From: Candidatus Kapaibacterium sp.
Lineage (GTDB): Bacteria > Bacteroidota > Ignavibacteria > Kapaibacteriales > UBA2268
Length of the DNA stretch: 64,000 nt
Assembly: GCA_963665665.1 (NCBI GenBank)
Contig: OY762428.1
Location: 1,733,200 to 1,797,199 of the forward strand
Reading direction: 5' to 3'
Shown: positions 7,681 to 49,784 of the stretch, piece after piece
How the letters are laid out: every line of letters begins with the position of its first letter
How positions within the stretch are numbered: the stretch's first letter is position 1
Notes under the pieces: generated by a model
Told to the model about the DNA's origin: nothing
Seen by the model: the letters and a program-made list of their open reading frames with translations, nothing else
Database searches by the model: none
Program-made: the position numbers and the translations under genes

Positions 7681-8518
7681 AGAAGAACGCAGGAAGATGG
7701 TAGATGCTGATAATAAAGAAATTAGCATAAGCCGGCAGTGCGAGCTTTTGGGTATTAGCAGGAGCTGTTATTATTACAAACCCAAGGGTGAAAGTGAAGC
7801 AAATATTCTATATATGAAGCTGATCAAAGAACAATTCGCGATTACTCCATTTTATGGAGCCAGAAAAATGACAGCACACTTACGTTCTTTGGGATACCAT
7901 GTTAACTATAAACGAATCAGGCGATTAATGAAATTATTGGGACTTCGGGCAATATATCCCCAACCGGACACGAGCAAACCGAACAAGGAGCACAAAATTT
8001 ATCCATACCTGTTGAGGGATATGAAAATAAGTCGTCCGGATCAGGTTTGGAGCCTGGATATAACATATATTCCGATGCGTAAAGGATTTATGTATCTTAT
8101 AGCAATTATAGATGTTTATAGCAGGTATATCGTCGACTGGGAATTATCGAATAACCTTGAGAAGGAGTTCTGCATAGATACAATAAAAAGGTCTTTGAAA
8201 ACCAGGAAACCGGAAATAACAAACACGGATCAGGGCAGTCAGTTCACGAGCAATGATTTTGTGAAAACGATTCTGGATGCTGATGTTAAGGTAAGCATGG
8301 ACGGCAAGGGCCGCGCCTTGGACAATGTTTACATAGAACGCTTCTGGCGGAGCTTTAAATACGAAGACCTGTATCTGAAGTCTTACGAAGACGGAAAAGA
8401 GCTCTATGGCGGTATAAAGGCTTATGTCGATTGGTATAACAACACGAGGCCGCACGCAGGAATTGAATACCAGATTCCGGCTGAAAAATATATGAACGAA
8501 CAGCGGTTCGTTAATTGA
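7673..8518 (+). CDS. IS3 transposase OrfB (DDE/RNaseH-fold), expressed as OrfAB by -1 frameshift
   Basis: DDE-type motifs VWSLDITYIPM, NTDQGSQFTS and YIERFWRSFKYE. It lies in the -1 frame relative to orfA. Confidence 0.85.
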   Translation: MSKEERRKMVDADNKEISISRQCELLGISRSCYYYKPKGESEANILYMKLIKEQFAITPFYGARKMTAHLRSLGYHVNYKRIRRLMKLLGLRAIYPQPDTSKPNKEHKIYPYLLRDMKISRPDQVWSLDITYIPMRKGFMYLIAIIDVYSRYIVDWELSNNLEKEFCIDTIKRSLKTRKPEITNTDQGSQFTSNDFVKTILDADVKVSMDGKGRALDNVYIERFWRSFKYEDLYLKSYEDGKELYGGIKAYVDWYNNTRPHAGIEYQIPAEKYMNEQRFVN

Positions 8519-8755
8519 AAACTTTGTTGGAAAAGTGAAAAAATGCAATCCGGTAAGCAATTGATAAAAAAAGAAATAGAAAGGAGAGTGAAAGTTATCC
8601 ACAATTTCCAGGTTGTTAACAAAAAGAAAAAAAAGTAGCAAAAAAAAGAAAAATTAATATTATTACATATTTTTTTCTTATTTTATTAGAGAAGAAGTAT
8701 AGATTAATAAACACCATAAACTATACTTTTATTTGTCTAAGCAATAGGGAGCATT

Positions 8756-9673
8756 TCACTTTTCTTCTATATATTTTAATGTTTCATCAATATGTTTTTG
8801 AGGATATTTATCAATTATTTCTTGGGCTTGATTTGGTGTTAAGCAAAAATAATTAATCAATTTATTGTAATGCTCGTAATTATAATTATCACTCAATAAT
8901 AATTCAGCTTTATCTTCTTCCAGTAATATATTATTTGATTTAATATGAAATACTATCTCAACTACTTTTCTTCCCTGTTTCCTTTCAGAAAATGTAAAAT
9001 TTATATCAGTTGTTTCATTTATTTCTCTCTGAGCCTGTTGTAATACTTTTATTTTGAAATTTGAATAATTAGGATATTGACCATCTTTTATCCATATTTT
9101 CTTTTTTAAATCCTCAACCGATATCCTCCTTTTAGCAATTCTTTCATACTGTTTCAGCATTTCATATAATCGTATACTGTAGGTACTTCTTAATCTCAAT
9201 ACATATTTCAATGTAAATTTTGTAAATTTTTCTTTCAATTGTAAAAAATACTTTTGTACATCATTTCCCAATTCTATTACTAAATATCCTTTGTTATTAA
9301 CGTATTTACATTTATTCACCCAATGAAGTTGATAATGATTTTCCCCGTCATCATATTCTATTACTCTGGTCATTAACTGCCGTGATATAGTTCTCATTTC
9401 ACTATAATTATTTTTACTCTTAGTACCTAATATTTCATTCAAATCTTTAATATTTAAGTGGTATTCCTGAAATTTTGTATCACCTTTTTCAATTAATGAT
9501 GCTACAATCAACAATAATCTTTGTTCCTGTAAAGATAACTTATAAGGCATTTCAATTAATTCATTATGCTTTATAATAGTTCGTCTATCATCAATAATTT
9601 TCATTTTAATGACTTTTTTCATATTATTCATTATGTTATAAGACAATATTATCATAAAACAAATTAAATGCAA
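8756..9673 (-). CDS. Plasmid replication initiator protein, Rep_3 family
   Basis: The N-terminus IKHNELIEMPYKLSLQEQRLLLIVASLI matches the Rep_3 signature. The gene is AT-rich and sits directly upstream of the iteron array. Confidence 0.65.
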   Translation of the reverse strand: MHLICFMIILSYNIMNNMKKVIKMKIIDDRRTIIKHNELIEMPYKLSLQEQRLLLIVASLIEKGDTKFQEYHLNIKDLNEILGTKSKNNYSEMRTISRQLMTRVIEYDDGENHYQLHWVNKCKYVNNKGYLVIELGNDVQKYFLQLKEKFTKFTLKYVLRLRSTYSIRLYEMLKQYERIAKRRISVEDLKKKIWIKDGQYPNYSNFKIKVLQQAQREINETTDINFTFSERKQGRKVVEIVFHIKSNNILLEEDKAELLLSDNYNYEHYNKLINYFCLTPNQAQEIIDKYPQKHIDETLKYIEEK

Positions 9674-11030
9674 CTACATTTTATCCACAGTTGCATTTAA
9701 TTTGCCCCAAATTGGTTGCACTTAAAAAAACTCAATCCGGTATGTATACCCCAATGTATAGGTAAAATATTTATTATAATATCTGTAACATATTATATTT
9801 TCACGTATATAACTATTGTTATTTATGAATTCCCCAACTGCAACCAATTTGGGGTGAAACCACTTGCTTTTTTCATTTTCGAGGAATATTTTGGAAAATT
9901 ACTATCATATTCCATATAAAAACGACCTATAACAGACCCAGGTCGCATTAAAATGTCTGCTATACCCCAAATCGGTTGCATTTCGCCCCAAATCGGTTGC
10001 ATTTATTTTTTTATTTCCTTGTTTTAAAAGGGTTTTCTGCATCCTAAAATATATAAAATAATTAAAAGATATAAAACAACAACAACAGAGCATCATCACC
10101 CCAAATCGGTTGCATTTAAAATATTATTCGTTGTTGTTGATTCTTTTTTTCAGAATTAAAATAAGAATAAGAATACTAACTATATAAATATCAACTACTA
10201 CATAAGCCTGTACATAGTATTATAAACACCCGGTATGTATACCCCAATGTACAGACAGAAAGTACGACTAAGTTATTGCTAACAGCAATGATATAACTAT
10301 TTCCCCCGCGCCGGTCGCAAGCTCCCGACTCCCCTCCTTTTCCTGACGGCTCCGCTAACGCTCCGGAGCAAAGTCTAACGACATATTGCCAAAAGGAGGG
10401 GAGCCGGAAGCACGTGTTTGCAAACCGCTCGCTGTCGCTCACGGGCAAGCCACGGCACCGGCGCGGGGGAACTTGTTTAACCCAGTCAGGAAAAGGATTT
10501 CCTTCCCCAATATCCAAATGCAACTAATTTGGGGTCAGGTCGAATATTTAGGCAAGCCTAAACCAAAAATTATTACATCCGAATTCTCAGGCAACAATGT
10601 GATGAAGAAAAGAAAAACAAGAAAAAAAACGAAACCCGACCCACCAAAAAGGTCGCATTATAATCCCGTCGTTCATTATATATTCATTATTAATATTCTA
10701 TGTCTAATTGATTCAATAGTTTAATATGTTTCTATTTTCTTCCTTTCCCCAACTGCAACCAATTTGGGGTGAAACCACGGACAAAAGGATGATCTGCGAC
10801 CAAAAACCAGGCAAACAGTGGCAAACAGGCAGAAAAACAGCAGGAATATTAACAAAAACTAATAAAACTACCAATTTGACCCCAAATCGGTTGCATTTCG
10901 CCCCAAATTAGTTGCATTTAACGTAAAAATCTAAAAAATGACCCCAAATCGGTTGCATTTCGCCCCAAATTAGTTGCATTTAACGCAAAAATGTAAAAAA
11001 TGACCCCAAATCGGTTGCACTTAGAGAAAA
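9665..11030. repeat. Iteron array: at least 12 copies of the 19-bp CCCCAAATCGGTTGCATTT (and variants) in both orientations
   Basis: Copies near 9705, 9838(rc), 9963, 9984, 10099, 10518(rc), 10751(rc), 10882, 10903, 10943, 10964 and 11005. A second repeat, CCGGTATGTATACCCCAATGTA, occurs at 9738 and 10230. Confidence 0.75.
10304..10469. repeat. GC-rich nested long inverted repeat (cruciform/hairpin candidate) within the iteron region
   Basis: CCCCCGCGCCGGT (10304-10316) pairs with ACCGGCGCGGGGG (10457-10469). The inner arms CTCCCCTCCTTTT (10330-10342) and AAAAGGAGGGGAG (10391-10403) also pair. Confidence 0.6.
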
Positions 11031-11049
11031 ATATTACTATTTTAATATC

Positions 11050-12381
11050 GTGAGCCCGGCGAAGCCGGGTCCGGACGCCAGACATTTTAATAAAAAAAAG
11101 AAATTATTTCCCGGCAGAGCCGGGAATAAAACATTTTGTTATAAAAAAGCATCGGGAGATGAGCCTTTGAGGTGGTTTTCTCTAATAACATCGCTTATAG
11201 CGGCGGTATTTTTCTTATACATGTTCCTCCGGGGCATGGCATACTCCGAGATAGAGGAGGCAAGGGCAGAGAAAAGGGCAACCGACAGTATCCTTAACTC
11301 GGAATCAATTCCGGCGCCAGTGGAAGAGGAAAATGTCCCGGAGGGTTTCTTTCGCGTAAGGGGAGGGGCATATAATAACATAAGCATTCTGCGGGGAAAG
11401 ATTGACGGCATGCTGATCGGAAATGCCTGGACAATGACGGACAAGGAAAGGATAACGTCCTTCTGTTACTACTGCGATATCGATACGGACATAAAGCTTC
11501 TTGTAAGCTATTCGCGTTTTCAGCAGTATGAAACAAACGACGCTAAAGTAAAAAAAAGAAAAAAACCGTCTTACCCTTTGTTTACCTGGCTGGAAAAATC
11601 CGATTATTCCTATGTCGGATATAATATGAAAAAGGGCATGGCCCTTATTCTTCCTCCGCAACCGGAATTATATTATATAAGCCGCAGGGACGCTTCGGGA
11701 AGCGAGGACAACATATTAATGCCTGCCATGCGCGACGACAGGAATACGAAGATATACCGTTCCTTCGGCAGTGAGAGAATATCGTTTTTTGCCGCAGAGA
11801 AGGATTTTATGTTCCGCATTAACGAGGCTCCCTGCCGTGAGACGATGAAGTTTATGGATGAGGAAAGAAAATCGGTTTACCTGCTTCCCGGGGAAACTTA
11901 CGATACGGGGCTTTGGACAGACAGGGGGGATCAACTGATAATATTCTTTACAGGAAGCATAAAGGTAAGCTCGTTAAACTACGGGGAAAGGACATACTGG
12001 CCCTGCCATGACGCCGACAATTACCGTTGCAGTCATTATTACTGCCGGGAGGGTCAGGAAGGCTTTATAAGCCTGCACGCCCTTGATTCGTCGGCTCTCC
12101 TTTCAATAGAAATAAAGAGGGGATACGGCGAGAAACTGGACCTTGAACCAGGCAAAGCCGCTTACATGGATTTGTTCGAGGGCGACGAGTTTGTGTTTTT
12201 CTCTAAGTCAAGGTTTTATCTTAACGGCAAATTGCAGGATCCGATATACGGCCATTACAGTGACGCCCTGTGGAGCGGCAAAGGCCGCTTTACCGCCGAC
12301 AGCAACTGCACGGTGGAGATAAGGGCTTCGGTCAATCCTAAAACAATATACATCAGGTCAATAAAAAGAAGGGGTTACTGA
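11050..12381 (+). CDS. Hypothetical membrane-anchored protein, first gene of the GC-rich plasmid operon
   Basis: 443-aa ORF. The true start is probably an internal Met (MFLRGMAYSE...). There is an N-terminal TM segment and no recognisable family. Confidence 0.4.
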   Translation: MSPAKPGPDARHFNKKKKLFPGRAGNKTFCYKKASGDEPLRWFSLITSLIAAVFFLYMFLRGMAYSEIEEARAEKRATDSILNSESIPAPVEEENVPEGFFRVRGGAYNNISILRGKIDGMLIGNAWTMTDKERITSFCYYCDIDTDIKLLVSYSRFQQYETNDAKVKKRKKPSYPLFTWLEKSDYSYVGYNMKKGMALILPPQPELYYISRRDASGSEDNILMPAMRDDRNTKIYRSFGSERISFFAAEKDFMFRINEAPCRETMKFMDEERKSVYLLPGETYDTGLWTDRGDQLIIFFTGSIKVSSLNYGERTYWPCHDADNYRCSHYYCREGQEGFISLHALDSSALLSIEIKRGYGEKLDLEPGKAAYMDLFEGDEFVFFSKSRFYLNGKLQDPIYGHYSDALWSGKGRFTADSNCTVEIRASVNPKTIYIRSIKRRGY

Positions 12382-19096: not shown

Positions 19097-19366
19097 GTAT
19101 TCGGGGCTTGCCGACAGGTAACAAACACGGCGTTACCGGCAGGCGGATATAAATAAAAGCCGTGAACAATAACTTTATGAACAAAGTTCAAAAAGAGAAG
19201 CATGAAAATGTTTCCGAAGCAAAACAGGATTTTCTGAAAAAACAGGAGATCATCAGAAAGCAGATCAAAGCCCGATGGGGCGAAAGGGATGAACGGCTTC
19301 CTTTAAAAAAAACAGCGATTTAAGGTGAAATAATCTTAACTTGCAAAAAATCAAAAGGAGCATCAA

Positions 19367-19654
19367 ATGGCAAACAAACGAAGAAATTACAGTTCAAAAT
19401 TCAAAATGCAGGTAGCCCTGGAGGCAGTCCAAGAGAGAAAAACAATAACCGAGCTGGCATCGGAGTACGGGGTTCATCCAAACCAGATAAGCATGTGGAA
19501 AAAGCATTTAAAAGAAAGTGAAAAGGAAGTATTTGAAAACAAGCGTGGGCCAGGGAAGAATAAAAAAGAAAAAGACGAATCAGTATTATATGAAGAAATA
19601 GGCCGGCTAAAAATTGAATTAGACTGGTTAAAAAAAAAATTGGGACGTGAGTAA
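19367..19654 (+). CDS. IS3 transposase OrfA
   Basis: Protein identical to copy 1 OrfA. Confidence 0.85.
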   Translation: MANKRRNYSSKFKMQVALEAVQERKTITELASEYGVHPNQISMWKKHLKESEKEVFENKRGPGKNKKEKDESVLYEEIGRLKIELDWLKKKLGRE

Positions 19655-20492
19655 AGAAGAACGCAGGAAGATGGTAGATGCTGATAATAAAGAAATTAGC
19701 ATAAGCCGGCAGTGCGAGCTTTTGGGTATTAGCAGGAGCTGTTATTATTACAAACCCAAGGGTGAAAGTGAAGCAAATATTCTATATATGAAGCTGATCA
19801 AAGAACAATTCGCGATTACTCCATTTTATGGAGCCAGAAAAATGACAGCACACTTACGTTCTTTGGGATACCATGTTAACTATAAACGAATCAGGCGATT
19901 AATGAAATTATTGGGACTTCGGGCAATATATCCCCAACCGGACACGAGCAAACCGAACAAGGAGCACAAAATTTATCCATACCTGTTGAGGGATATGAAA
20001 ATAAGTCGTCCGGATCAGGTTTGGAGCCTGGATATAACATATATTCCGATGCGTAAAGGATTTATGTATCTTATAGCAATTATAGATGTTTATAGCAGGT
20101 ATATCGTCGACTGGGAATTATCGAATAACCTTGAGAAGGAGTTCTGCATAGATACAATAAAAAGGTCTTTGAAAACCAGGAAACCGGAAATAACAAACAC
20201 GGATCAGGGCAGTCAGTTCACGAGCAATGATTTTGTGAAAACGATTCTGGATGCTGATGTTAAGGTAAGCATGGACGGCAAGGGCCGCGCCTTGGACAAT
20301 GTTTACATAGAACGCTTCTGGCGGAGCTTTAAATACGAAGACCTGTATCTGAAGTCTTACGAAGACGGAAAAGAGCTCTATGGCGGTATAAAGGCTTATG
20401 TCGATTGGTATAACAACACGAGGCCGCACGCAGGAATTGAATACCAGATTCCGGCTGAAAAATATATGAACGAACAGCGGTTCGTTAATTGA
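19647..20492 (+). CDS. IS3 transposase OrfB
   Basis: Protein identical to copy 1 OrfB. Confidence 0.85.
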   Translation: MSKEERRKMVDADNKEISISRQCELLGISRSCYYYKPKGESEANILYMKLIKEQFAITPFYGARKMTAHLRSLGYHVNYKRIRRLMKLLGLRAIYPQPDTSKPNKEHKIYPYLLRDMKISRPDQVWSLDITYIPMRKGFMYLIAIIDVYSRYIVDWELSNNLEKEFCIDTIKRSLKTRKPEITNTDQGSQFTSNDFVKTILDADVKVSMDGKGRALDNVYIERFWRSFKYEDLYLKSYEDGKELYGGIKAYVDWYNNTRPHAGIEYQIPAEKYMNEQRFVN

Positions 20493-20857
20493 AAACTTTG
20501 TTGGAAAAGTGAAAAAATGCAATCCGGTAAGCAATTGATAAAAAAAGAAATAGAAAGGAGAGTGAAAGTTATCCACAATTTCCAGGTTGTTAACAAAAAG
20601 AAAAAAAAGTAGCAAAAAAAAGAAAAATTAATATTATTACATATTTTTTTCTTATTTTATTAGAGAAGAAGTATAGATTAATAAACACCATAAACTATAC
20701 TTTTATTTGTCTAAGCAATAGGGAGCATTTCACTCAGCAGATCTGTGGAATTTCATTACAAAAGATAATTTAACAGCAGAAGATTCTTTTGGATTTACAA
20801 CACCAAGGAGCCTATCAAAATCAATTAGAAAAAAAGATTAGAAAAGGATAATCGAAA

Positions 20858-24420: not shown

Positions 24421-24988
24421 CGTTTTGTGGCCGCCGTTGACGCATGCCGACGGCCAGCGGCAGCCAACTACGAAAAATGACGAGCTGCGACGCAAAAATT
24501 ACTCTCCGGAGAGAATTCCTTCATAAATTAGTCGTTTTCAGGAAAAATTTCCGGAAATTGTCCCATCCCAGAGGCTATTTCTAAAAACGACCGCCATAAA
24601 TCGCTTCTAAGGGGTTTTTATTTTTAGATTCGGTTGATGTATGGTAATTTTTGAAACGAGGCATCGCTTGACAACAATCTTATAATGATGTAATGTTTGC
24701 TAATGTTCTTTTTACAATAATATAATAGGTGTACAATGTATTCTAAAAATAATTCTCAATCAAATTCAAATTATGGCATTTGGTTTGTGATAATAGCATT
24801 AGTTTCAATAAACATCATTGCTTTTGGTTTTTTATCCTATTACCTTTCTTACTGGTTTATTGTTTTAGTTTCAATCCAATTTCTTTATTTTTCTTTTTTT
24901 AAAAGGAAATCTGAACGGCTTCCTTTAAAAAAAACAGCGATTTAAGGTGAAATAATCTTAACTTGCAAAAAATCAAAAGGAGCATCAA

Positions 24989-25276
24989 ATGGCAAACAAA
25001 CGAAGAAATTACAGTTCAAAATTCAAAATGCAGGTAGCCCTGGAGGCAGTCCAAGAGAGAAAAACAATAACCGAGCTGGCATCGGAGTACGGGGTTCATC
25101 CAAACCAGATAAGCATGTGGAAAAAGCATTTAAAAGAAAGTGAAAAGGAAGTATTTGAAAACAAGCGTGGGCCAGGGAAGAATAAAAAAGAAAAAGACGA
25201 ATCAGTATTATATGAAGAAATAGGCCGGCTAAAAATTGAATTAGACTGGTTAAAAAAAAAATTGGGACGTGAGTAA
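24989..25276 (+). CDS. IS3 transposase OrfA
   Basis: Protein identical to copy 1 OrfA. Confidence 0.85.
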   Translation: MANKRRNYSSKFKMQVALEAVQERKTITELASEYGVHPNQISMWKKHLKESEKEVFENKRGPGKNKKEKDESVLYEEIGRLKIELDWLKKKLGRE

Positions 25277-26114
25277 AGAAGAACGCAGGAAGATGGTAGA
25301 TGCTGATAATAAAGAAATTAGCATAAGCCGGCAGTGCGAGCTTTTGGGTATTAGCAGGAGCTGTTATTATTACAAACCCAAGGGTGAAAGTGAAGCAAAT
25401 ATTCTATATATGAAGCTGATCAAAGAACAATTCGCGATTACTCCATTTTATGGAGCCAGAAAAATGACAGCACACTTACGTTCTTTGGGATACCATGTTA
25501 ACTATAAACGAATCAGGCGATTAATGAAATTATTGGGACTTCGGGCAATATATCCCCAACCGGACACGAGCAAACCGAACAAGGAGCACAAAATTTATCC
25601 ATACCTGTTGAGGGATATGAAAATAAGTCGTCCGGATCAGGTTTGGAGCCTGGATATAACATATATTCCGATGCGTAAAGGATTTATGTATCTTATAGCA
25701 ATTATAGATGTTTATAGCAGGTATATCGTCGACTGGGAATTATCGAATAACCTTGAGAAGGAGTTCTGCATAGATACAATAAAAAGGTCTTTGAAAACCA
25801 GGAAACCGGAAATAACAAACACGGATCAGGGCAGTCAGTTCACGAGCAATGATTTTGTGAAAACGATTCTGGATGCTGATGTTAAGGTAAGCATGGACGG
25901 CAAGGGCCGCGCCTTGGACAATGTTTACATAGAACGCTTCTGGCGGAGCTTTAAATACGAAGACCTGTATCTGAAGTCTTACGAAGACGGAAAAGAGCTC
26001 TATGGCGGTATAAAGGCTTATGTCGATTGGTATAACAACACGAGGCCGCACGCAGGAATTGAATACCAGATTCCGGCTGAAAAATATATGAACGAACAGC
26101 GGTTCGTTAATTGA
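25269..26114 (+). CDS. IS3 transposase OrfB
   Basis: Protein identical to copy 1 OrfB. Confidence 0.85.
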   Translation: MSKEERRKMVDADNKEISISRQCELLGISRSCYYYKPKGESEANILYMKLIKEQFAITPFYGARKMTAHLRSLGYHVNYKRIRRLMKLLGLRAIYPQPDTSKPNKEHKIYPYLLRDMKISRPDQVWSLDITYIPMRKGFMYLIAIIDVYSRYIVDWELSNNLEKEFCIDTIKRSLKTRKPEITNTDQGSQFTSNDFVKTILDADVKVSMDGKGRALDNVYIERFWRSFKYEDLYLKSYEDGKELYGGIKAYVDWYNNTRPHAGIEYQIPAEKYMNEQRFVN

Positions 26115-26614
26115 AAACTTTGTTGGAAAAGTGAAAAAATGTAATCCGGTAAGCAATTGATAAAAAAAGAAATAGAAAGGAGAGTGAAAGTTATCCACAA
26201 TTTCCAGGTTGTTAACAAAAAGAAAAAAAAGTAGCAAAAAAAAGAAAAATTAATATTATTACATATTTTTTTCTTATTTTATTAGAGAAGAAGTATAGAT
26301 TAATAAACACCATAAACTATACTTTTATTTGTCTAAGCAATAGGGAGCATTTCATACTATATCGAGATTGATATAAAAACAATGAAGATCATCAATTATG
26401 ATTACGACCAAAAAGAAAATTTTGACCTAAACCAGTTAAACAAAGGGCCGACTCAAATAATATTTTTAACAAAAGGCCAGTACAACAAATTTGTTGGCCG
26501 CCTTGCAGAATAATATCCGCAACCAAATCGAAAGATTAAATAATTATATAACTACTGATTTTACTGCCAATATCGCTTTGGGCTCAGGCTATCAATAAAA
26601 TTTCTCCTTTTTTT

Positions 26615-37374: not shown

Positions 37375-37905
37375 TCAATCTATATCTATCTTTTTTCTCA
37401 GGCGGAAAAGCATTGTGAATATGGCTATCACAGTGGTATATGAGGATATGGCGATGCCGTATTTCATAACGAATGCCAGGTAGTCAATCTCGCTTGGTTT
37501 TATGTAGAAGAAGAAGTAAACGATATTATGGAAAAATGAGGCAAGGAAAACAATGTACAGGAAACGGTAGCGGCCTATTTTGTGCTCAAGGCTGCCCTCG
37601 CGGCAGAAAAGCCCGGCAATATAAACTGCAACCGTTTTGGCAAGAGCGTTGGTGCCAATCACGTCGGCGGATATGATATCAAACATTATACCCACCAGGA
37701 AACCGGCAAAAAGCCCCTTCAGGCGCCCCTCGGCAAGAGTAAACCATACGCAGAATATCAGCAGCAGGTCCGGTGTGATGTTCTGCACGGAAATGAAACG
37801 CAGGAATACGATATGCAAAATAACAAGGAATAACGCTGTTATGGCGTATTTAATATATTTTATTATTGCATCTCTTGTGCCTTTTGGCGTATCGAATTTT
37901 ACCAT
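37375..37905 (-). CDS. mreD: Rod shape-determining protein MreD
   Basis: Polytopic membrane protein immediately downstream of mreC. Confidence 0.65.
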   Translation of the reverse strand: MVKFDTPKGTRDAIIKYIKYAITALFLVILHIVFLRFISVQNITPDLLLIFCVWFTLAEGRLKGLFAGFLVGIMFDIISADVIGTNALAKTVAVYIAGLFCREGSLEHKIGRYRFLYIVFLASFFHNIVYFFFYIKPSEIDYLAFVMKYGIAISSYTTVIAIFTMLFRLRKKIDID

Positions 37906-37909
37906 GCCG

Positions 37910-38764
37910 CTATCTCCTGCCCGTTCTTGCTTTTAATCTTTGTTCCATCTCTTCTATCAGCTGCTGCCGCTCGGGGTCGGGCGTGTGCAATATCACAAAA
38001 ACTTCTTCAATTGTATTGAAATCAACAAATGGCTTTACTTTTATTTTCAGAAACAGTGAGGATTTATCTTCTTCAATCAAAATAATCTGCCCGATGGGAA
38101 TGCCTTCAGGAAATTTATTACTGAAATTCGAGGTCATAACAATGTCGCCTGTCTGAACGTCGAATGATCCCGGGATGTTTTTCAGCAGGAAGTTATTGCC
38201 TCCTTCCCATGCCAGTATGCCGTTAATATCAGTTCTCTGGATTTTAGCCGAGATTTTAATATTCCGGTTGGCGATAAGCTCCACTAAGGAATAATTTTCA
38301 CTTACGCCTACCACCACTCCGCAAAGCCCCGCATCGGACCTTACGGTCATCCCGCGCCTGACACTGTCCGCGGCACCCGAGGCAAGTGTGAAATACTGAC
38401 GCATTTCCACGGTAGTTTTGCCGACAATTTCCGATGTGATATATGGTCTTTCCTGCGCCTCTTCAAGCTCCATCAGCTTACGCAGCTCCTTGTTTTCTAT
38501 CAGGGCATGGCGCATCCTTGTAACTTCGGATGATAACTTAAGGTTGAGTTCCCTAAGCGCTTTGTTTTCGCTTTCCAAAGCTCCCGGGTTGGGAACCCAT
38601 GAAAAAAGCTCCTGCAGCCAGCCTGTAGCGCCGATAACCACGGTGCGGAAACCGCCTATCTGAGATACATTGCCCATGGAAATAAGAGACAAACTAATGA
38701 TAATCAACGCTGCAAACGTTATCATTTCCTTGAATCTGACTATCAGCTCAATTAGTCTCTGCAT
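37910..38764 (-). CDS. mreC: Rod shape-determining protein MreC
   Basis: N-terminal TM segment followed by a coiled coil (ENKALRELNLKLSSEVTRMRHALIENKELRKLMELEE). Located downstream of mreB. Confidence 0.75.
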   Translation of the reverse strand: MQRLIELIVRFKEMITFAALIIISLSLISMGNVSQIGGFRTVVIGATGWLQELFSWVPNPGALESENKALRELNLKLSSEVTRMRHALIENKELRKLMELEEAQERPYITSEIVGKTTVEMRQYFTLASGAADSVRRGMTVRSDAGLCGVVVGVSENYSLVELIANRNIKISAKIQRTDINGILAWEGGNNFLLKNIPGSFDVQTGDIVMTSNFSNKFPEGIPIGQIILIEEDKSSLFLKIKVKPFVDFNTIEEVFVILHTPDPERQQLIEEMEQRLKARTGRR

Positions 38765-38844
38765 AGGGTAAGTTTAAATAAATAATATAATTTGTAATTA
38801 TGTTTCACTGAAGAATTTTTCAATTTTCAACTTTATCAATGTTT

Positions 38845-38973
38845 GTAATTCCCCGACAGGTCACCGATAAATCGGTGCAGGCAGGGGCAGGCTTCAGGAG
38901 CGAAGCGACTGAAGAATCCATTTCCTACTTTCTTTATCAGAAGAATAAACTCTTCGCTCGGCTCAGAGTGACA
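38845..38973. repeat. MITE/REP-like palindromic element inside the mreB-mreC intergenic spacer
   Basis: gtaattccccgacaggtcaccgataaatcggtgcaggcaggggcaggcttcaggagcgaagcgactgaagaatcca...ctcttcgctcggctcagagtgaca belongs to the same family as 4293 and 49677. Confidence 0.55.
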
Positions 38974-39142
38974 ACATCATCAGCTTATGAGACAGCCTCC
39001 TTTTGCTCTTAGCCATCCCCTTCGGGAAGACGACAGTCTTTTCGAGGGTTTGGGAGGGATCAAGTGTAAGAGACTTATTAAATTTTCAAAAATTTCAATA
39101 CAATTTCTATAAACCTTCGGAAGGTTAATCTAAAAATTTCTA

Positions 39143-40168
39143 TCAATATCTTGTATTCTTGATCAATACCGAGGAATAATCATTCAGAGATTCCAGGGCT
39201 TTTCCTGTTCCGCGAGCAACGGCAAAGAGTGGTTCTTCGGCAACATTTACCGGAAGGCTGGTTTCGCGCCTGAGCCTTTCGTCAAGTCCTTTCAGCAATG
39301 CACCGCCGCCGGAAAGCATAATACCGCGGTCGAAAATATCAGCCGATAGTTCCGGTGGAGTTTTCTCCAAAAGGCTGCGAACGGCATCAACTATCTCTGA
39401 AACTGCCTCGGAAAGGGCTTCCCTGATATCAACCGATGTAACCTGGATCATTCTCGGGAAACCTGAAACCAGGTCGCGTCCCTTCACTTCAATCTCGATT
39501 TCTTCTTCCAGTTCCACAGCCGAGCCAACTTCACATTTTATCATCTCGGCAGTTCTGTCGCCGATCAGGATATTGTGCTGCCTGCGGAAATACTGCACGA
39601 TAGATTCCGTCATCTCGTCGCCGGCCACCCTGATGGATTTGTCGCTGACTATACCGGAAAGAGCAATCACGGCAATTTCTGTTGTACCGCCGCCGATATC
39701 AACTATCATGTTGCCAATCGGCTCATGCACGTTCAGCCCGATACCGATTGCAGCAGCCATAGGTTCCGCAATCAGGTGTACTTCTTTGGCACCGGCATGC
39801 TCGCAACTGTCCCTTACAGCGCGTTTTTCCACCTCGGTAAGCCCCGAGGGAACGCAGACCACAACCCTGCGCGCGGGCTGCCAGCTAAGCGATACCTTGC
39901 GGATAAAAGCCCTGAGCATACCTTCTGTAATTTCGAAGTCGGCGATAGCGCCGTCCCGTAGGGGACGAATAATTTTAATATCTTTATGTGTTTTACCCAC
40001 CATAGCCTGCGCTTCGCGCCCGATAGCGATAATATGCTTGCTGGAACGGTCGAAAGCAACAATGGATGGTTCGTTCAATACTATATTTTTCCCTTTCATC
40101 CAGATAAGGGTATTGGCGGTGCCAAGGTCAATTGCTACGTCATTGGAGAAGAATCTGAAAGAAGCCAT
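39143..40168 (-). CDS. mreB: Rod shape-determining protein MreB (actin homologue)
   Basis: N-terminus DVAIDLGTANTLIWMKGKNIVLNEPSIVAF and the motif DIGGGTTEIAVIALSGIV are typical of MreB. Confidence 0.9.
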   Translation of the reverse strand: MASFRFFSNDVAIDLGTANTLIWMKGKNIVLNEPSIVAFDRSSKHIIAIGREAQAMVGKTHKDIKIIRPLRDGAIADFEITEGMLRAFIRKVSLSWQPARRVVVCVPSGLTEVEKRAVRDSCEHAGAKEVHLIAEPMAAAIGIGLNVHEPIGNMIVDIGGGTTEIAVIALSGIVSDKSIRVAGDEMTESIVQYFRRQHNILIGDRTAEMIKCEVGSAVELEEEIEIEVKGRDLVSGFPRMIQVTSVDIREALSEAVSEIVDAVRSLLEKTPPELSADIFDRGIMLSGGGALLKGLDERLRRETSLPVNVAEEPLFAVARGTGKALESLNDYSSVLIKNTRY

Positions 40169-40869: not shown

Positions 40870-41118
40870 CTATCCCAAATACATGAAAATTATTTGCAGG
40901 GTCGGCATAGCTATCTTCAGGGGGCATATCTGCTTATGGAATAAATTAAATAATTCGTCATTGCTCATATTACTTATGCCAGAATAGTTTATTCCTGCCG
41001 AACCTGCCAGTACCAGGCAGCGGCTCAATGTTTTCCTCGATACTCCTGCTATAGTTGATGTTTTACTTTTACTTACCTTCACTCTGCCGAGCCTTAATAT
41101 CTGTCTTATATCAATCAT
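40870..41118 (-). pseudogene. IS21-family IstA-like transposase N-terminal HTH fragment (remnant)
   Basis: MIDIRQILRLGRVKVSKSKTSTIAGVSRKTLSRCL resembles the IstA N-terminal HTH. The ORF is only 82 aa with no DDE domain downstream. Confidence 0.3.
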
Positions 41119-42220
41119 ACTGAAACTCGTTTTAGCAATAATTGTTTCCTGTTATGTGAATTGTTTTTTTATCATGGGGATTAGCATTATTCGTGCAATT
41201 TTTGGCTAAAAAAAACGGGCCTTTACTGCGAAATAAACATAGAACATCCTCCGAAACAAGGTTGGACTTTGAAGCGAAATATACAGCTAAACCCTCCTTT
41301 CTTCTTCATACCCCCGTGCCCTCTCATTCATAAGCCGTGGACAGCCATAGTTTCAATTTCCTGCTTCCCGGGTTGCACTTTGGAATTCTGAAGCTCATAT
41401 CCAAAGTAGAACTTTGCAGGAAATATTCCTTCCCAGGTACAACTTGGGAAGGAGGCTTTAAGGGTGTATTGTCATTCTGAGCGCCAGCGAAGAATCCATT
41501 CTTAATACCTAATCTGCAAAGAAAGATGGATTCTTCGGTCGCTTCGCTTCGTCAGAATGACGGATGGAAATGTCCCCCGCTGGCGGGGGTGGATTCTTAA
41601 AATTCCCCTCGTTGAGGGGTGGCGAGCGCAGCGAGTTCCCGACACGTCGGGACAGGCAGGGGTGGATTCTTTTTCCGTAACCTCCCTTATCCACGAGCTA
41701 AAGCACGTGGCTATTGAATTTGACGATTATAAGGCTGGGATGTCATTCTGAGCGCCAGCGAAGAATCCATTCTTAATACCTAATCTGCAAAGAAAGATGG
41801 ATTCTTCACTTTGTTCAGAATGACGGATGGGAATGTCCCCCGCTGGCGGGGGTGGATTCTTAAAATTCCCCTCGTTGAGGGGTGGCGAGCGCAGCGAGTT
41901 CCCGACACGTCGGGACAGGCAGGGGTGGATTCTTCACACACTATCTGCAAAGAAAGATGGATTCTTCGGTCGCTTCGCTCCGTCAGAATGACAACATAAC
42001 ACCTCATTCTTTTGCTCAGTTTACCCGTTCTTCCACCCAAATGAACAGGCCGCCGGCCTTAATTCCCCAACCTGTGGTTTCAATGAATCGGATAATTTCC
42101 TTATTTCAATGCTGTTTTTAATCAAAACCATGATGTTTGGGCTAATTGCTTTGTTGGCAGGGCTTTAAACTGCCTTGGCCGGAGTTATTGAACTACTGTT
42201 TGGCCTTAATGTAGTGAAAT

Positions 42221-42865
42221 TTGGCCTCATTGAACACTTGGTTGACCTTATTGAACACTTGGTTGACCTTACTGAACACTTGGTTGACCTTATTGAACAC
42301 TTGGTTGACCTTACTGAACACTTGGTTGACCTTACTGAACACTTGGTTGACCTTACTGAACACTTGGTTGACCTTACTGAACATGTTCTTTGCCTCCGAC
42401 CAAGAGTTCAATGACTTCGACCAAGGCGTCAATAAAGCAAAACATTGCTGCAATAGTGTCGACCAAGAGTTCATTATCTTCAAACATCAGTACAATGATT
42501 TGAAACAAGGCAGCAATAACTTCGAACAAGGCAGCAATGACTCCGACCAAGGCATCAATGACTTCAACCAAGGCGTCAATAACTTCAACCAAGGCATCAA
42601 TAACTCCAAACAAGGCATCAATGACTTCGACCAAGGCATCAATAACTCCGACCAAGGCATCAATAAAGCAAAACATTGCTGCAATAGGTGCAAACAAGAG
42701 TTCATTATCTTCAAACAAGGCGGCAATAAAGCAAAACATTGGTGCAATGACTTCAACCAAGGCAGCAATAAAGCAAAACATTGCTGCAATAGTGTCGAAC
42801 AAGACCTCAATACCTCTGACCCCTCCCAAACCCTCCCCGAAGGAGAGGGCTTTGAAGAAGAATAA
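42221..42865 (+). CDS. Candidate heptad-repeat / Q-N-rich repeat protein (frame uncertain; all six frames open across the 21-bp arrays)
   Basis: 214-aa ORF spanning both arrays: MASLNTWLTLL x7 followed by DQGINNF-type 7-aa repeats and NKAKHCCN x4. It may be non-coding satellite DNA. Confidence 0.25.
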   Translation: MASLNTWLTLLNTWLTLLNTWLTLLNTWLTLLNTWLTLLNTWLTLLNTWLTLLNMFFASDQEFNDFDQGVNKAKHCCNSVDQEFIIFKHQYNDLKQGSNNFEQGSNDSDQGINDFNQGVNNFNQGINNSKQGINDFDQGINNSDQGINKAKHCCNRCKQEFIIFKQGGNKAKHWCNDFNQGSNKAKHCCNSVEQDLNTSDPSQTLPEGEGFEEE

Positions 42866-43616
42866 GGCGGCAATGAGTTAGAACATCAGTGCAATAACTT
42901 AGACCAAGGCAGTAATAGGTTAAACCATTGGTGCTTTGCTTTCGACACTTTCTACCTCCCCCCGCCCCCCTCCTTCAAAAGGAGGGGGAGTTAATTCTAT
43001 GATATTTAACTTCTTATCCCCTCCTCGGGGAGGAGGGGAATAAAGGGGTGGTTTTCTTGCTTTGCTTTGGGTCAGGGCACATTTATCCACGCGCTAAAGC
43101 ACCTGGCCATTGAATTTGACGATTATAAGGCTGGGATGTAATCCTGAGCACCAGTGAAGAATCCATTCTTAATACCTAATCTGCAAAGAAAGATGGATTC
43201 TTCACTTTGTTCAGAATGACGGATGGGAATGTCCCCCGCTGGCGGGGGTGGATTCTTAAAATTCCCCTCGTTGAGGGGTGGCGAGCGCAGCGAGTTCCCG
43301 ACACGTCGGGACAGGCAGGGGTGGATTCTTCACACACTATCTGCAAAGAAAGATGGATTCTTCGGTCGCTTCGCTCCGTCAGAATGACAACATAACACCT
43401 CATTCTTTTGCTCAGTTTACCCGTTCTTCCACCCAAATGAACAGGCCGCCGGCCTTAATTCCCCAACCTGTGGTTTCAATGAATCGGATAATTTCCTTAT
43501 TTCAATGCTGTTTTTAATCAAAACCATGATGTTTGGGCTAATTGCTTTGTTGGCAGGGCTTTAAACTGCCTTGGCCGGAGTTATTGAACTACTGTTTGGC
43601 CTTAATGTAGTGAAAT

Positions 43617-44282
43617 TTGGCCTCATTGAACACTTGGTTGACCTTATTGAACACTTGGTTGACCTTACTGAACACTTGGTTGACCTTATTGAACACTTGG
43701 TTGACCTTACTGAACACTTGGTTGACCTTACTGAACACTTGGTTGACCTTACTGAACACTTGGTTGACCTTACTGAACACTTGGTTGACCTTACTGAACA
43801 TGTTCTTTGCCTCCGACCAAGAGTTCAATGACTTCGACCAAGGCGTCAATAAAGCAAAACATTGCTGCAATAGTGTCGACCAAGAGTTCATTATCTTCAA
43901 ACATCAGTACAATGATTTGAAACAAGGCAGCAATAACTTCGAACAAGGCAGCAATGACTCCGACCAAGGCATCAATGACTTCAACCAAGGCGTCAATAAC
44001 TTCAACCAAGGCATCAATAACTCCAAACAAGGCATCAATGACTTCGACCAAGGCATCAATAACTCCGACCAAGGCATCAATAAAGCAAAACATTGCTGCA
44101 ATAGGTGCAAACAAGAGTTCATTATCTTCAAACAAGGCGGCAATAAAGCAAAACATTGGTGCAATGACTTCAACCAAGGCAGCAATAAAGCAAAACATTG
44201 CTGCAATAGTGTCGAACAAGACCTCAATACCTCTGACCCCTCCCAAACCCTCCCCGAAGGAGAGGGCTTTGAAGAAGAATAA
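43617..44282 (+). CDS. Second tandem copy of the candidate repeat protein (221 aa; one extra heptad)
   Basis: Identical to 42221-42865 except for one additional 21-bp unit. Confidence 0.25.
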   Translation: MASLNTWLTLLNTWLTLLNTWLTLLNTWLTLLNTWLTLLNTWLTLLNTWLTLLNTWLTLLNMFFASDQEFNDFDQGVNKAKHCCNSVDQEFIIFKHQYNDLKQGSNNFEQGSNDSDQGINDFNQGVNNFNQGINNSKQGINDFDQGINNSDQGINKAKHCCNRCKQEFIIFKQGGNKAKHWCNDFNQGSNKAKHCCNSVEQDLNTSDPSQTLPEGEGFEEE

Positions 44283-44765
44283 GGCGGCAATGAGTTAGAA
44301 CATCAGTGCAATAACTTAGACCAAGGCAGTAATAGGTTAAACCATTGGTGCTTTGCTTTCGACACTTCCTACCTCCCCCCGCCCCCCTCCTTCAAAAGGA
44401 GGGGAAGTTAATTCTATGATATTTAACTTCTTATCCCCTCCTAAAGTAGGAGGGGAATACAGGGGTGGTTTTCTTGCTTTGCTTCCGGTCAGGGCACATT
44501 TATCCACGCGCTAAAGCACCTGGCCATTGAATTTGACGATTATAAGGCTGGGATGTAATCCTGAGCACCAGTGAAGAATCCATTCTTCACACACTATCTA
44601 ACTAAAGAAGATGGATTCTTCCGTCGCTTCGCTCCGTCAGAATAACAGATGAAGAGTACGCTGCTGCCATGCAGAAAATGTGATGGAATATTATCATTAC
44701 ATAATCATCTTATAATCTATTACCTGCTTACAATTATATATTACATTGAACCGTTCATAGTTATT

Positions 44766-49676: not shown

Positions 49677-49784
49677 TGTCATTCCCCGATAAATCGGGGC
49701 AGGCTTCCGCATTTTGCGAGTGAAGAATCCACGTAATATGCAGAATATGTTGAAGAATGGATACTTCGCTTTGCTCAGTATGAC
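49677..49784. repeat. MITE/REP-like palindromic element
   Basis: gtgtcattccccgataaatcggggcaggcttccgc...gagtgaagaatcc...ttgaagaatggatacttcgctttgctcagtatgac. Confidence 0.55.

What the first reader, a model, noticed from the sequence alone, without database searches (positions are those of the whole stretch)
41470..44645. 3.2-kb nested repeat landscape with a ~1.4-kb tandem duplication whose 21-bp periodic arrays keep all six frames open and differ in unit number between copies
Units 41691-43086 and 43087-44503 are near-identical, and copy 2 has one extra 21-bp unit (8 versus 7 of GAACACTTGGTTGACCTTAYT). Each unit has a second 21-bp array (CAAGGCATCAATRACTYCRAC-like), GC hairpins (CCCCCGCCCCCCTCCTTCAAAAGGAGGGGGAG; CCCCTCCTCGGGGAGGAGGGG) and MITE-like palindromes. 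Because 21 = 3x7, every frame on both strands encodes heptad repeats (TWLTLLN; KVNQVFS; IDALVEV; DQGINNF), so coding status is genuinely ambiguous. One option is a recently duplicated gene for a heptad-repeat or Q-N-rich protein with slipped-strand length variation (phase- or antigenic-variation-like). Another is a satellite or structural DNA locus. Either is unusual.
Basis: seen in the sequence. Interest (0 to 1): 0.7.

Follow-up and report, generated by a model that had tools for sequence, protein, structure and literature searches.

The report
Non-coding interspersed repeat with 21-bp minisatellites
The 3.2-kb repeat landscape is one locus of a non-coding, multi-copy modular repeat element that carries fast-changing 21-bp minisatellites and was doubled here by unequal recombination; it belongs to a known kind of bacterial selfish or structural DNA and is not a heptad-repeat protein gene.

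Summary
Two units of 1396 and 1417 bp differ by 17 substitutions and one 21-bp unit (7 versus 8 copies). The claim that all six frames stay open is wrong: four of six are open in each array.

The region is one copy of a dispersed intergenic element. Its order is a 239-bp leader, 21-bp array A, array B (an inverted relative of A), a 42-nt GC hairpin, and a three-hairpin tail. It sits among independent 92-bp palindromic MITEs. Twelve related ORFs lie elsewhere in the same 5.46-Mb genome, and seven loci occur in a close relative.

At the orthologous mreB–DUF2867 locus, the relative (flanks 97.5–98% identical) has one unit, 11 A units and 8 B units. The hybrid head/MITE junction at 43083–43167 shows that unequal crossover between flanking MITEs made the duplication.

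No frame behaves as coding. There is no codon periodicity, and pN/pS is no lower in open frames than in frames closed by stops. Stops recur, and gene callers pick different frames at different copies. Variation in the tail avoids stems.

The closest analogues are the Porphyromonas BrickBuilt MITE and pneumococcal BOX elements. The strict 21-nt register across the hairpin blocks remains unexplained.

The parts
41395..41462 (+). Left-flank hairpin segment (Lfl; CAAAGTAGAACTTTGCAGG...TTCCCAGG..TTGGGAAGGAGG) shared with other copies of the element
   Evidence: blastn of components: 85-98% matches next to the element in L001, L004, L005 and L006 and in L007
41471..41562 (.). Complete 92-bp palindromic MITE (GTCATTCTGAGCG...CGTCAGAATGAC), an independent repeat family
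   Evidence: further copies at window 4325, 38899, 49716 and in several loci
41563..41671 (+). H cluster: three short GC hairpins (CCCCCGCTGGCGGGGG, CCCCTCGTTGAGGGG, TCCCGACACGTCGGGA)
   Evidence: repeat family D6, three copies in the window; found beside the element in L001, L002, L003 and L005
41687..41741 (+). 'Head' segment, left-type copy; start of tandem unit 1
   Evidence: family D5; alignment A4
41742..41992 (.). MITE with a second MITE half and an H cluster nested in its loop
   Evidence: compare the simple, un-nested MITE at 44555-44646
41993..42231 (+). Leader, copy 1: 239 bp, 86-96% identical between copies; its last 105 nt are five old, degenerate A-type 21-bp units
   Evidence: (alignment A3, mean 89% column identity)
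42232..42378 (+). Array A, copy 1: 7 units of GAACACTTGGTTGACCTTAYT
42379..42399 (.). Junction unit holding the palindrome GAACATGTTC, the centre of the inverted symmetry between arrays A and B
   Evidence: conserved in L001, L003, L005 and L007
42400..42819 (+). Array B, copy 1: 20 degenerate 21-bp units of several sub-types (CAAGGCATCAATRACTYCRAC, CAAGGCNGCAATAAAGCAAAA, CATTGCTGCAATAGTGTCGAM, CAAGAGTTCATTATCTTCAAA) forming 42- and 63-bp higher-order repeats
42820..42861 (.). G block: 42-nt GC hairpin (CCCCTCCCAAACCCTCCCCGAAGGAGAGGGC...), exactly two unit lengths
42862..42945 (+). Four post-G 21-bp units, three of them with TTAGA/TTAAA variants that put stops in the minus m2 frame
42946..43086 (+). 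T (tail) module, copy 1: outer helix enclosing three hairpins, followed by a T-rich tract
   Evidence: (z = -2.4); differs at 9 of 141 nt from copy 2
43083..43167 (+). Recombinant duplication junction: right-type head plus MITE left arm, switching to left-type MITE interior inside the shared GAAGAATCCATTCTT
   Evidence: alignment A4: all 7 diagnostic bases are right-type up to the shared 15-mer and left-type after it
43168..43388 (.). MITE interior with nested H cluster, copy 2
43389..43627 (+). Leader, copy 2 (identical to copy 1)
43628..43795 (+). Array A, copy 2: 8 units
43796..44236 (+). Junction unit and array B, copy 2 (identical to copy 1)
44237..44362 (+). G hairpin block and post-G units, copy 2
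44363..44503 (+). T module, copy 2; identical (0 of 141 differences) to the T module at the orthologous locus L007
44500..44646 (+). Right-type head plus a simple 92-bp MITE; right partner of the unequal crossover; about 120 bp upstream of the likely start of the DUF2867/NAD-binding gene (ATG at 44769)

Best explanation
The region is one locus of a non-coding, non-autonomous, modular interspersed repeat family in an uncultured bacterium of the FCB group. Its genome encodes proteins with the type IX secretion sorting domain.

Each element has the same order of parts:
- a conserved 239-bp leader;
- array A, a homogeneous and fast-turning-over 21-bp minisatellite;
- a palindromic junction;
- array B, an older and more degenerate 21-bp minisatellite that is an inverted relative of A;
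- a 42-nt GC hairpin;
- a tail of three hairpins inside an outer helix.

The element is embedded among separate 92-bp palindromic MITEs.

The arrays gain and lose whole 21-bp units, and blocks of units, by slipped-strand mispairing or unequal exchange. This step is inferred from the finding that every length difference is a multiple of 21.

The 1.4-kb tandem duplication arose by unequal homologous crossover between the head/MITE copies that flank a single unit. The hybrid junction and the single-unit state of a close relative show this directly.

The heptad ORFs are by-products. A 21-bp unit is seven codons, so any frame without a stop in one unit stays open along the whole array.

The hairpin modules are constrained at the level of nucleic-acid structure. 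The element is most likely selfish or neutral DNA. Any effect on neighbours would be through transcript structure, termination or attenuation, as proposed for BOX and BrickBuilt; this last step is inferred and was not tested.
For: Family and dispersal.
- The window comes from a 5,458,198-bp NCBI/ENA genome: MreB, MreC, MreD and others match exactly.
- Twelve further ORFs built from the same modules lie on that genome. None is encoded in this window; they are 48-72% identical to window translations.
- Seven loci in a close relative (ENA ERZ21869602) carry the same module order next to unrelated housekeeping genes such as aconitase, dnaJ, smc, trkH and dxs.

Orthologous locus.
- L007 has flanks 97.5-98.1% identical to the window.
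- It has one macro-unit instead of two, 11 A units instead of 7 or 8, and 8 B units before the G hairpin instead of 21. It also has a 189-bp B-G higher-order repeat in 2 copies.

Register.
- In all copies the distance from the end of array A to the G hairpin is n x 21 + 8.

Duplication junction.
- The hybrid is right-type then left-type, with the switch inside GAAGAATCCATTCTT.

Evidence against coding.
- There is no Pfam hit for any frame.
- The f1 ORF has no homologue.
- The only relatives of the minus-strand ORF are unnamed short ORFs of the same repeat, plus low-complexity noise.
- Unit diversity shows no 3-periodicity: A 0.62/0.46/0.69 and B 0.82/0.77/0.81 bits.
- pN/pS is 0.5-3.0 across frames. 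The lowest values occur equally in frames closed by stops.
- TTAGA stop variants recur in m2 in the window, L002, L004 and L005.
- Gene callers chose f0 at L007, m2 at L002-L006 and a mixed + frame at L001.
- An IS and a 600-bp AT-rich insert are tolerated inside elements.

Structure-level constraint.
- Across 11 T modules, 10 of the 39 variable columns fall in stems. There is no codon periodicity (12/15/12). The pair closing the loop of hairpin 3 covaries, AU in 8 copies and CG in 3.

Precedent.
- BrickBuilt has a leader, 23-nt repeats and a tail, with 19 intergenic copies (PMC4596501).
- Large BOX elements carry ORFs on both strands (PMC3049150).
Against: - The 21-nt register is kept across the G block (42 nt) and the T block (147 nt), which slippage alone does not explain.
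- The inverted A/B arrangement is kept in every copy, and the tract folds as one long imperfect hairpin (z = -9.6). These two features could reflect selection on a DNA or RNA function.
- The minus frame m2 is open through all T blocks. One paralogue gives a 471-aa ORF made of six in-frame modules (P0081).
- No terminal inverted repeats, target-site duplications or empty sites were found, so the mode of dispersal is unknown.
- No expression data could be consulted.
- The T module of copy 1 differs at 9 nt from that of copy 2, which a simple crossover does not predict. It requires a later conversion event.
Confidence: 0.76

Rival explanations
1. The element is a functional non-coding unit. One version is a roughly 1-kb transcript running leader, arrays, then a terminator-like tail, whose A and B arrays pair into a long hairpin or present about 30 repeated sites to an RNA-binding protein. 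Another version is a DNA array of binding sites phased at two helical turns (21 bp) for a DNA-binding or nucleoid protein.
For: - The strict 21-nt register is maintained even through the hairpin blocks.
- The inverted A/B symmetry is kept in all copies although A-unit sequences differ.
- The predicted long hairpin has z = -9.6.
- The leader is 86-96% conserved and has no ORF.
- The T module is a GC-rich multi-hairpin followed by TTTTCTTKCTTTGCTT on the + strand.
- BrickBuilt segments have promoter activity (PMC4596501 abstract).
Against: - Arm lengths vary independently (A 5-17 units, B 8-26), so no defined hairpin is conserved.
- There is no covariation in the leader and only one covarying pair in T.
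- There is no Rfam match.
- An IS and an AT-rich insertion inside elements are tolerated.
- Promoter-like and terminator-like sites are no more frequent than in shuffled sequence.
- Orientation relative to neighbouring genes is not consistent across the independent loci.
- Conservation between copies can equally reflect recent spread or gene conversion.
Confidence: 0.12
2. The arrays encode real heptad-repeat proteins, and the locus is a duplicated gene with length variation by slippage. The candidate frames are + f1 (LNTWLTL/QGINNFD), or convergent f0 (IEHLVDL) together with minus m2 (ALVEVID).
For: - Long open frames exist: f1 of 214 and 221 aa spanning both arrays.
- f1 is open across A and B in 6 of 7 copies.
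- m2 is open through the T blocks, with a 471-aa paralogous ORF.
- All indels are multiples of 3 because they are multiples of 21.
- Some between-copy unit differences are synonymous in f0 and m2.
Against: - f1 has no homologue in 5.8 billion proteins and no Pfam hit.
- pN/pS for f1 is 2.8 in array B. The value of 0.58 for m2 equals that of a frame closed by stops.
- There is no codon periodicity in the arrays or in T.
- Stops recur in m2 in four copies.
- There is no conserved start, and the leader TAA stop is kept in 7 of 8 copies.
- ORFs read straight through palindromic GC hairpins whose loops vary and whose stems are kept.
- Callers chose different frames at different copies.
- About four of six frames are expected to be open by chance for a 7-codon unit (inference).
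Confidence: 0.05
3. The 1.4-kb tandem duplication, and the 7-versus-8 difference, is an assembly artefact. Two strain haplotypes of a single-copy locus could have been stacked, or a repeat loop traversed twice. In that case only one unit exists in the cell.
For: - The interior 1190 bp of the two copies is 100% identical apart from one 21-bp unit.
- The unit is flanked by about 93% similar head/MITE repeats that could confuse an assembler.
- The close relative has one unit.
- Reads cannot be inspected here.
Against: - The two copies differ at 17 positions, including 9 in the T module.
- The junction is a clean hybrid with the switch inside a 15-nt identical stretch, as expected of homologous recombination.
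- Assemblers usually collapse tandem repeats rather than expand them (general knowledge).
- Tandem higher-order repeats of the same modules occur independently in L001 (295 bp in 2.7 copies), L002, L007 (189 bp in 2.1 copies) and P0081 (six modules).
Confidence: 0.07

Closest known systems
BrickBuilt MITE of Porphyromonas gingivalis (Klein et al. 2015, Mob DNA 6:18; PMC4596501)
   Same: - It is an intergenic, multi-copy element (19 copies) of restricted host range, found in a T9SS-bearing Bacteroidota genome.
- Its architecture is a conserved non-repetitive leader, a spacer-less tandem array of 1 to 22.8 units of about two helical turns, and a tail.
- Unit number differs between copies and strains.
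- Annotation pipelines predict hypothetical genes inside it.
- It lies near other MITEs.
   Different: - The unit here is 21 nt, not 23, so here frames stay open.
- Two opposed arrays (A and inverted-relative B) replace the single array.
- GC hairpin blocks (G, T) are present and can form higher-order tandem repeats.
- No IS5-like terminal inverted repeats were found. GTAGAACTTTGCA, which matches BrickBuilt's GAGACCTTTGCA at 10 of 12 positions, occurs once per element with no inverted partner.
- Overall sequence similarity could not be tested.
Pneumococcal BOX elements, boxA-boxB(n)-boxC (Croucher et al. 2011, BMC Genomics 12:120; PMC3049150)
   Same: - It is a modular interspersed repeat with a variable number of internal tandem modules.
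- It has extensive predicted secondary structure.
[quoted passage not shown]
- It is judged parasitic, with possible effects on co-transcribed genes.
   Different: - It occurs in a different phylum and has no sequence relation.
- boxB is 45 nt and the elements are shorter (up to about 650 bp).
- It has no inverted pair of arrays.
Mycobacterial interspersed repetitive units (MIRU-VNTR) (own knowledge; Supply et al. 1997, 2000)
   Same: It is a dispersed minisatellite family at many intergenic loci, with locus- and strain-specific unit numbers.
   Different: - MIRUs are 46-101 bp and sit within operons.
- They contain small ORFs phased with the flanking genes for translational coupling.
- They have no leader, tail or hairpin modules.
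REP/BIME mosaic elements of enterobacteria (own knowledge; see also PMC3733652 for REP super-families)
   Same: They are clusters of GC-rich palindromic units combined in mosaic and tandem arrangements in intergenic regions. Constraint acts on stem structure rather than on coding.
   Different: - REPs are 20-40 bp and are mobilised by RAYT transposases.
- They have no 21-bp minisatellite and no conserved 239-bp leader.
- GTAG/CGTC tags were not looked for here.
Phase-variable contingency loci (simple sequence repeats in ORFs or promoters) (own knowledge)
   Same: Both show tandem repeat number changing between close relatives by slippage.
   Different: - Contingency repeats act by shifting a reading frame or promoter spacing of a defined gene.
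- Here the unit is a multiple of 3 and no conserved ORF contains it.
- The arrays lie more than 800 bp from the next gene start, behind hairpin modules and a MITE.

Membership tests
BrickBuilt-type MITE with internal minisatellite | Leader, spacer-less tandem repeat array and tail, in that order | tested here: met
   The same module order occurs in 9 element copies (window x2, L001-L007)
BrickBuilt-type MITE with internal minisatellite | Multiple intergenic copies per genome, with unit number differing between copies and strains | tested here: met
   12 ORF-bearing copies elsewhere in the source genome. 7 loci in the relative, all intergenic. A units range from 0 to 17
BrickBuilt-type MITE with internal minisatellite | 23-nt repeat unit | tested here: not met
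   The unit is 21 nt in every copy
BrickBuilt-type MITE with internal minisatellite | IS5-like terminal inverted repeats (GAGACCTTTGCA ... TGCAAAGGTCTC) at the leader and tail ends | tested here: not met
   A 10-of-12 look-alike (GTAGAACTTTGCA) occurs once at the left flank of each element. No inverted partner was found in the window or the loci
BrickBuilt-type MITE with internal minisatellite | Sequence homology to P. gingivalis BrickBuilt | not testable with these tools
   The full BrickBuilt sequence is not held here. The array and leader patterns gave 0 hits in 185,579 species genomes and in the JGI metagenomes
Pneumococcal BOX element | boxA-boxB(n)-boxC sequence modules in mitis-group streptococci | not tested
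   The resemblance is architectural only. The host here is a T9SS-bearing FCB-group bacterium
Protein-coding heptad-repeat gene | One frame with a conserved start and stop, open in all copies | tested here: not met
   Stop maps. The leader TAA is conserved. Callers chose different frames at different copies
Protein-coding heptad-repeat gene | Codon-position periodicity of variation, and pN/pS below 1 specific to the coding frame | tested here: not met
   Entropy is flat across codon phases. pN/pS is 0.5-3.0, with minima shared by closed frames. T module variable columns are 12/15/12 by phase
Protein-coding heptad-repeat gene | Homologues outside the repeat family, or a known domain | tested here: not met
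Phase-variable contingency locus | Unit-number change alters the reading frame or promoter spacing of a defined gene | tested here: not met
   The unit is 21 nt, a multiple of 3. The arrays end more than 800 bp upstream of the DUF2867 gene start, behind the T module, head and MITE
Iteron-type replication origin or partition site | One array set per replicon, next to rep or par genes | tested here: not met
   There are many loci per genome. The neighbours are mreBCD, a DUF2867/NAD-binding protein and other housekeeping genes. There is no plasmid or phage match
CRISPR array | Repeats separated by unique spacers of similar length | tested here: not met
   The units are head-to-tail without spacers
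Known RNA family (Rfam 15) | Match at or above the gathering score | tested here: not met
   0 matches at gathering threshold. Only chance-level matches at E up to 1

The most novel reading that the evidence does not exclude
The 21-nt quantisation is selected rather than incidental. All array indels, the 42-nt G block and the 147-nt T block keep one register, and an inverted A/B arrangement is preserved in every copy. On this reading the element would be a domesticated non-coding module. It could be a phased array (two helical turns per unit) of binding sites for a DNA-binding or nucleoid protein. Alternatively it could be a roughly 1-kb repeat-rich RNA that sequesters an RNA-binding protein, analogous in logic to CsrB-type sponges. 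Array length would then act as a rapidly evolving tuning knob.
Probability: 0.1. Interest if true: 0.6.

Novelty: new member of a known kind. Interest (0 to 1): 0.3.

Why it matters
The main practical value is for annotation and assembly.
- The family generates spurious hypothetical proteins on both strands, at least 20 in public protein sets, including a 471-aa ORF. These should be masked.
- Its arrays and MITE-flanked units are hot spots of structural variation between genomes that are about 98% identical. That makes them strain markers and also assembly hazards.

Biologically it extends the BrickBuilt/BOX type of 'MITE with a minisatellite' to another uncultured T9SS-bearing lineage. It also gives a clean, junction-resolved example of MITE-mediated unequal crossover creating a kilobase tandem duplication.

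The strict 21-nt register across the hairpin blocks is a small open puzzle. If it proved to be selected, it would point to a helical-phase or protein-binding role for such elements.

Tried and rejected
- **Collection scans.** Scans of viral contigs with tail and leader motifs gave 0 hits. blastn against plasmids and phages gave no match.
- **Exact look-ups.** The look-up of encoding contigs for MreB and for P0006 found nothing on record. The source genome is in the protein collection but not in the gene-position index, so its other copies could not be read as DNA.
- **Protein searches.** The f1 ORF found nothing. The f2 frame (KAAIKQNIAAI), which recalled adhesin-stalk heptads, found only one ORF of the same repeat, so I dropped the adhesin-pseudogene idea.
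- **Weak family hits.** Pfam on eight ORFs gave only coiled-coil or low-complexity hits below the cut-offs. The top hits of the exhaustive search (P0002-P0005, P0007, P0013) are unrelated low-complexity repeat proteins.
- **Transposon-end hypotheses.** The idea that the 21-mers are transposase-binding sites was rejected: they match the ends of the window's 1,445-bp IS at no more than 11 of 21 positions. The IS5-like TIR idea was rejected because there is no inverted partner.
- **Target-site duplication around the T core.** The direct repeat TGCTTTGCTTTSGA flanks the core, but the 129-bp spacing does not fit the observed 147-bp register, so I did not pursue it.
- **Leader RNA structure.** RNAalifold found no covariation.
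- **Promoter and terminator scan.** The sigma-70 and intrinsic-terminator scan found no more sites than in shuffled sequence.
- **Taxon.** It could not be pinned below 'T9SS-bearing FCB-group bacterium', because there is no rRNA or tRNA in the window.

Full report
**1. The observation**

- TRF finds a 21-bp array of 7.3 units at 42231-42383 and one of 8.3 units at 43627-43800. Each is followed by a degenerate 21/42/63-bp array.
- The exact unit GAACACTTGGTTGACCTTAYT occurs 7 + 8 times, against 0 expected. The second unit occurs 16 times, against 0.01 expected.
- A global alignment of 41691-43086 with 43087-44503 gives 17 substitutions and one 21-bp indel. The interior 41760-42950 is otherwise identical, and the substitutions cluster at the two ends of the unit.

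Two statements need correction.
- Only four of six frames are open in each array. TGA, TAA or TAG occurs in every unit in the other two frames. Only + frame f1 (ORF 42221-42865, 214 aa; 221 aa in copy 2) spans both arrays fully.
- The periodic tract is a single 21-nt register from about 42127 to 42945. It runs through a 42-nt GC hairpin block.

I also found that array A is about 70% identical to the reverse complement of array B. The tract therefore has an imperfect inverted symmetry centred on GAACATGTTC and folds in silico as one long imperfect hairpin (z = -9.6).

**2. Context**

The window is chromosomal DNA of a T9SS-bearing (FCB-group) bacterium.
- mreB, mreC and mreD lie to the left at 37375-40168 on the minus strand.
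- A DUF2867/NAD-binding protein gene lies to the right.
- Several proteins carry the Por_Secre_tail sorting domain.
- There are no tRNAs and no Rfam families.

The 4.4-kb gap between mreB and the next gene holds only the repeats and a short ORF that resembles, from memory only, an IS21 N-terminal fragment.

**3. Relatives**

DNA pattern scans of species genomes, JGI metagenomes and viral contigs found nothing, and blastn against plasmids and phages gave no match. Protein searches on the spurious ORFs opened the way.
- The f1 ORF has no homologue.
- The f2 frame hit one 96-aa ORF.
- An exhaustive search with the minus-strand m2 ORF, followed by a profile search, recovered 16 unnamed ORFs made of the same modules.
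- Twelve of these lie on one 5,458,198-bp NCBI/ENA contig.

Exact look-ups show that the window itself comes from that contig. tblastn shows that none of the twelve ORFs is encoded in the window. The family is therefore dispersed in the source genome.

The other ORFs led to six loci (L001-L006) in ENA sample ERZ21869602. Each is intergenic and sits next to different housekeeping genes.

Component mapping shows one architecture everywhere: a 239-bp leader (86-96% identical), array A, junction, array B, G hairpin, post-G units and the T module. The element is often flanked by a 55-bp 'head' plus a 92-bp palindromic MITE, and sometimes by an H cluster of small hairpins and a left-flank hairpin.

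Variation between copies is extensive.
- Array A differs in number (0-17 units) and also in unit sequence: TGAACACTTGGTTGACCTTAC, TGAGGTCTTGTTTGGCCTTAC, TCCCACGCTTGTTTGGCCTCA and TTGCTTGCTTGTTCCGCCTCA.
- The block B-G-postG-T can itself be tandemly repeated: 295 bp in 2.7 copies in L001, two copies in L002, and six in-frame modules in P0081.
- One copy carries an IS inside a G hairpin, and another carries a 600-bp AT-rich insert.

**4. The orthologous locus**

A 90%-identity cluster-mate of the window's methyltransferase gave L007, the mreB-DUF2867 locus of the relative.
- Its flanks are 97.5% and 98.1% identical to the window.
- Between them the relative has a single macro-unit, with 11 A units, 8 B units before the first G hairpin (the window has 21), and a 189-bp B-G higher-order repeat in 2 copies.

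It shows rapid change in both copy number and unit number. Across all copies, the distance from the end of array A to the first G hairpin is always n x 21 + 8.

**5. How the duplication arose**

I aligned five head/MITE copies: the window's left, middle and right copies, and L007's left and right copies. The middle copy (43083-) carries all seven right-type diagnostic bases up to the shared 15-mer GAAGAATCCATTCTT, and left-type sequence after it.

That is the signature of unequal homologous crossover between the MITE arm to the right of a single unit and the one to its left. The T module of copy 2 is identical to that of L007. The T module of copy 1 differs at 9 of 141 positions, which I attribute, by inference, to later ectopic conversion from another copy.

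**6. Coding or not**

No frame hits Pfam above its cut-off. I ran four further tests.
- **Codon periodicity in the arrays.** Per-position diversity of 26 distinct A units and 55 distinct B units shows none: 0.62/0.46/0.69 and 0.82/0.77/0.81 bits.
- **pN/pS between similar units.** For A: f1 0.60, f2 0.65, f0 1.33, m2 0.53, m1 1.65, m0 0.70. For B: f1 2.78, f2 1.05, f0 0.58, m2 0.58, m1 1.66, m0 2.97. The lowest values are shared with frames that carry a stop in every unit. The only frame spanning both arrays (f1) looks anti-conserved in B.
- **Stop maps.** The TTAGA variant recurs and closes m2 in the window, L002, L004 and L005. The TAA in the leader that precedes f0 is kept in 7 of 8 copies.
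- **T module.** Across 11 copies, variable columns fall 12/15/12 over the three codon phases. Only 10 of the 39 variable columns lie in stems, and the pair closing the loop of hairpin 3 switches between A-U (8 copies) and C-G (3 copies) while the triloop varies.

Gene callers also chose f0 at L007, m2 at L002-L006 and a mixed + frame at L001.

With a 7-codon unit, roughly 70% of frames are expected to lack a stop, which is about four of six. This is an inference from codon frequencies. The open frames therefore carry no information about coding.

**7. Best explanation and rivals**

The locus is a copy of a non-coding modular interspersed repeat whose minisatellites evolve by slippage or unequal exchange in 21-bp steps. 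It was locally doubled by MITE-mediated unequal crossover (confidence about 0.76).

The rivals are:
- a functional phased DNA array or a long structured or sponge RNA (0.12);
- real heptad proteins (0.05);
- an assembly artefact, which would affect only the duplication (0.07).

What my account does not explain is why the G block (42 nt) and the T block (147 nt) are exact multiples of 21, and why the inverted A/B arrangement persists.

**8. Comparison with known systems**

The nearest described system is the BrickBuilt MITE of Porphyromonas gingivalis. It has a leader, a spacer-less 23-nt minisatellite of 1 to 22.8 units and a tail, with 19 intergenic copies, strain variation and hypothetical genes predicted within it (PMC4596501).

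The element here works like it but is not a member of that family. Its unit is 21 nt, no IS5-type terminal inverted repeats were found, and it has two opposed arrays plus hairpin blocks.

Pneumococcal BOX elements supply the precedent for open frames on both strands of large modular repeats, judged to be probable mis-annotations (PMC3049150).

MIRU, REP/BIME and contingency loci are more distant comparisons. They rest on my own knowledge and are marked as such.

**9. Verdict**

Interest is 0.3. That score reflects annotation hygiene, use as a strain marker, a neatly resolved duplication mechanism, and one unresolved oddity, the strict 21-nt register.

Noticed in passing
window 7316-8760, 19290-20734, 24911-26354: Three essentially identical (99.9-100%) copies of a 1,445-bp IS. 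Its 281-aa ORF has rve, HTH_21 and rve_3 domains (IS3-type), which points to recent transposition in this genome.
   Followed up: partly
window 40870-41118 (-): An 82-aa ORF (MIDIRQILRLGRVKVSKSKTSTIAGVSRKTLSRCL...) that looks like the HTH N-terminus of an IS21-type transposase. It has no Pfam hit, so the resemblance rests on memory only.
   Followed up: no
window 4325-4364, 38899-38972, 49716-49784; also L001 1214, L003 1641 and 17775, L005 13172 and 16228: Further copies of the 92-bp palindromic MITE (GTCATTCTGAGCG...CGTCAGAATGAC) lie away from the array element. One sits between mreC and mreB. It is therefore an independent repeat family.
   Followed up: partly
L003 about 10216-11810 (element coordinates 680-2070): An IS with a DDE_Tnp_1 transposase (370 aa) is inserted in the loop of a G hairpin. 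The hairpin top CCCCGAAGGGG is present on both sides, suggesting that the IS targets the hairpin.
   Followed up: no
L006 about 10430-11030 (element coordinates 400-1000): A roughly 600-bp extremely AT-rich insert of unknown origin lies between array A and array B.
   Followed up: no
window 42979-43003 and 44396-44420: Each T module carries AAGGAGGGGGAG followed 10 nt later by ATG on the + strand. This looks like a ribosome-binding site plus start codon and seeded the called ORF P0001 in L001. It is probably a by-product of the GGAGG hairpin stem.
   Followed up: partly
window 5001-6000: There is a local GC spike (0.58 against about 0.40 for the window) over ORF 4634-6025.
   Followed up: no
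L001 9524-9568: One G hairpin is 43 nt instead of 42. This shifts the 21-nt register by +1 downstream, so the register is not absolutely inviolable.
   Followed up: partly
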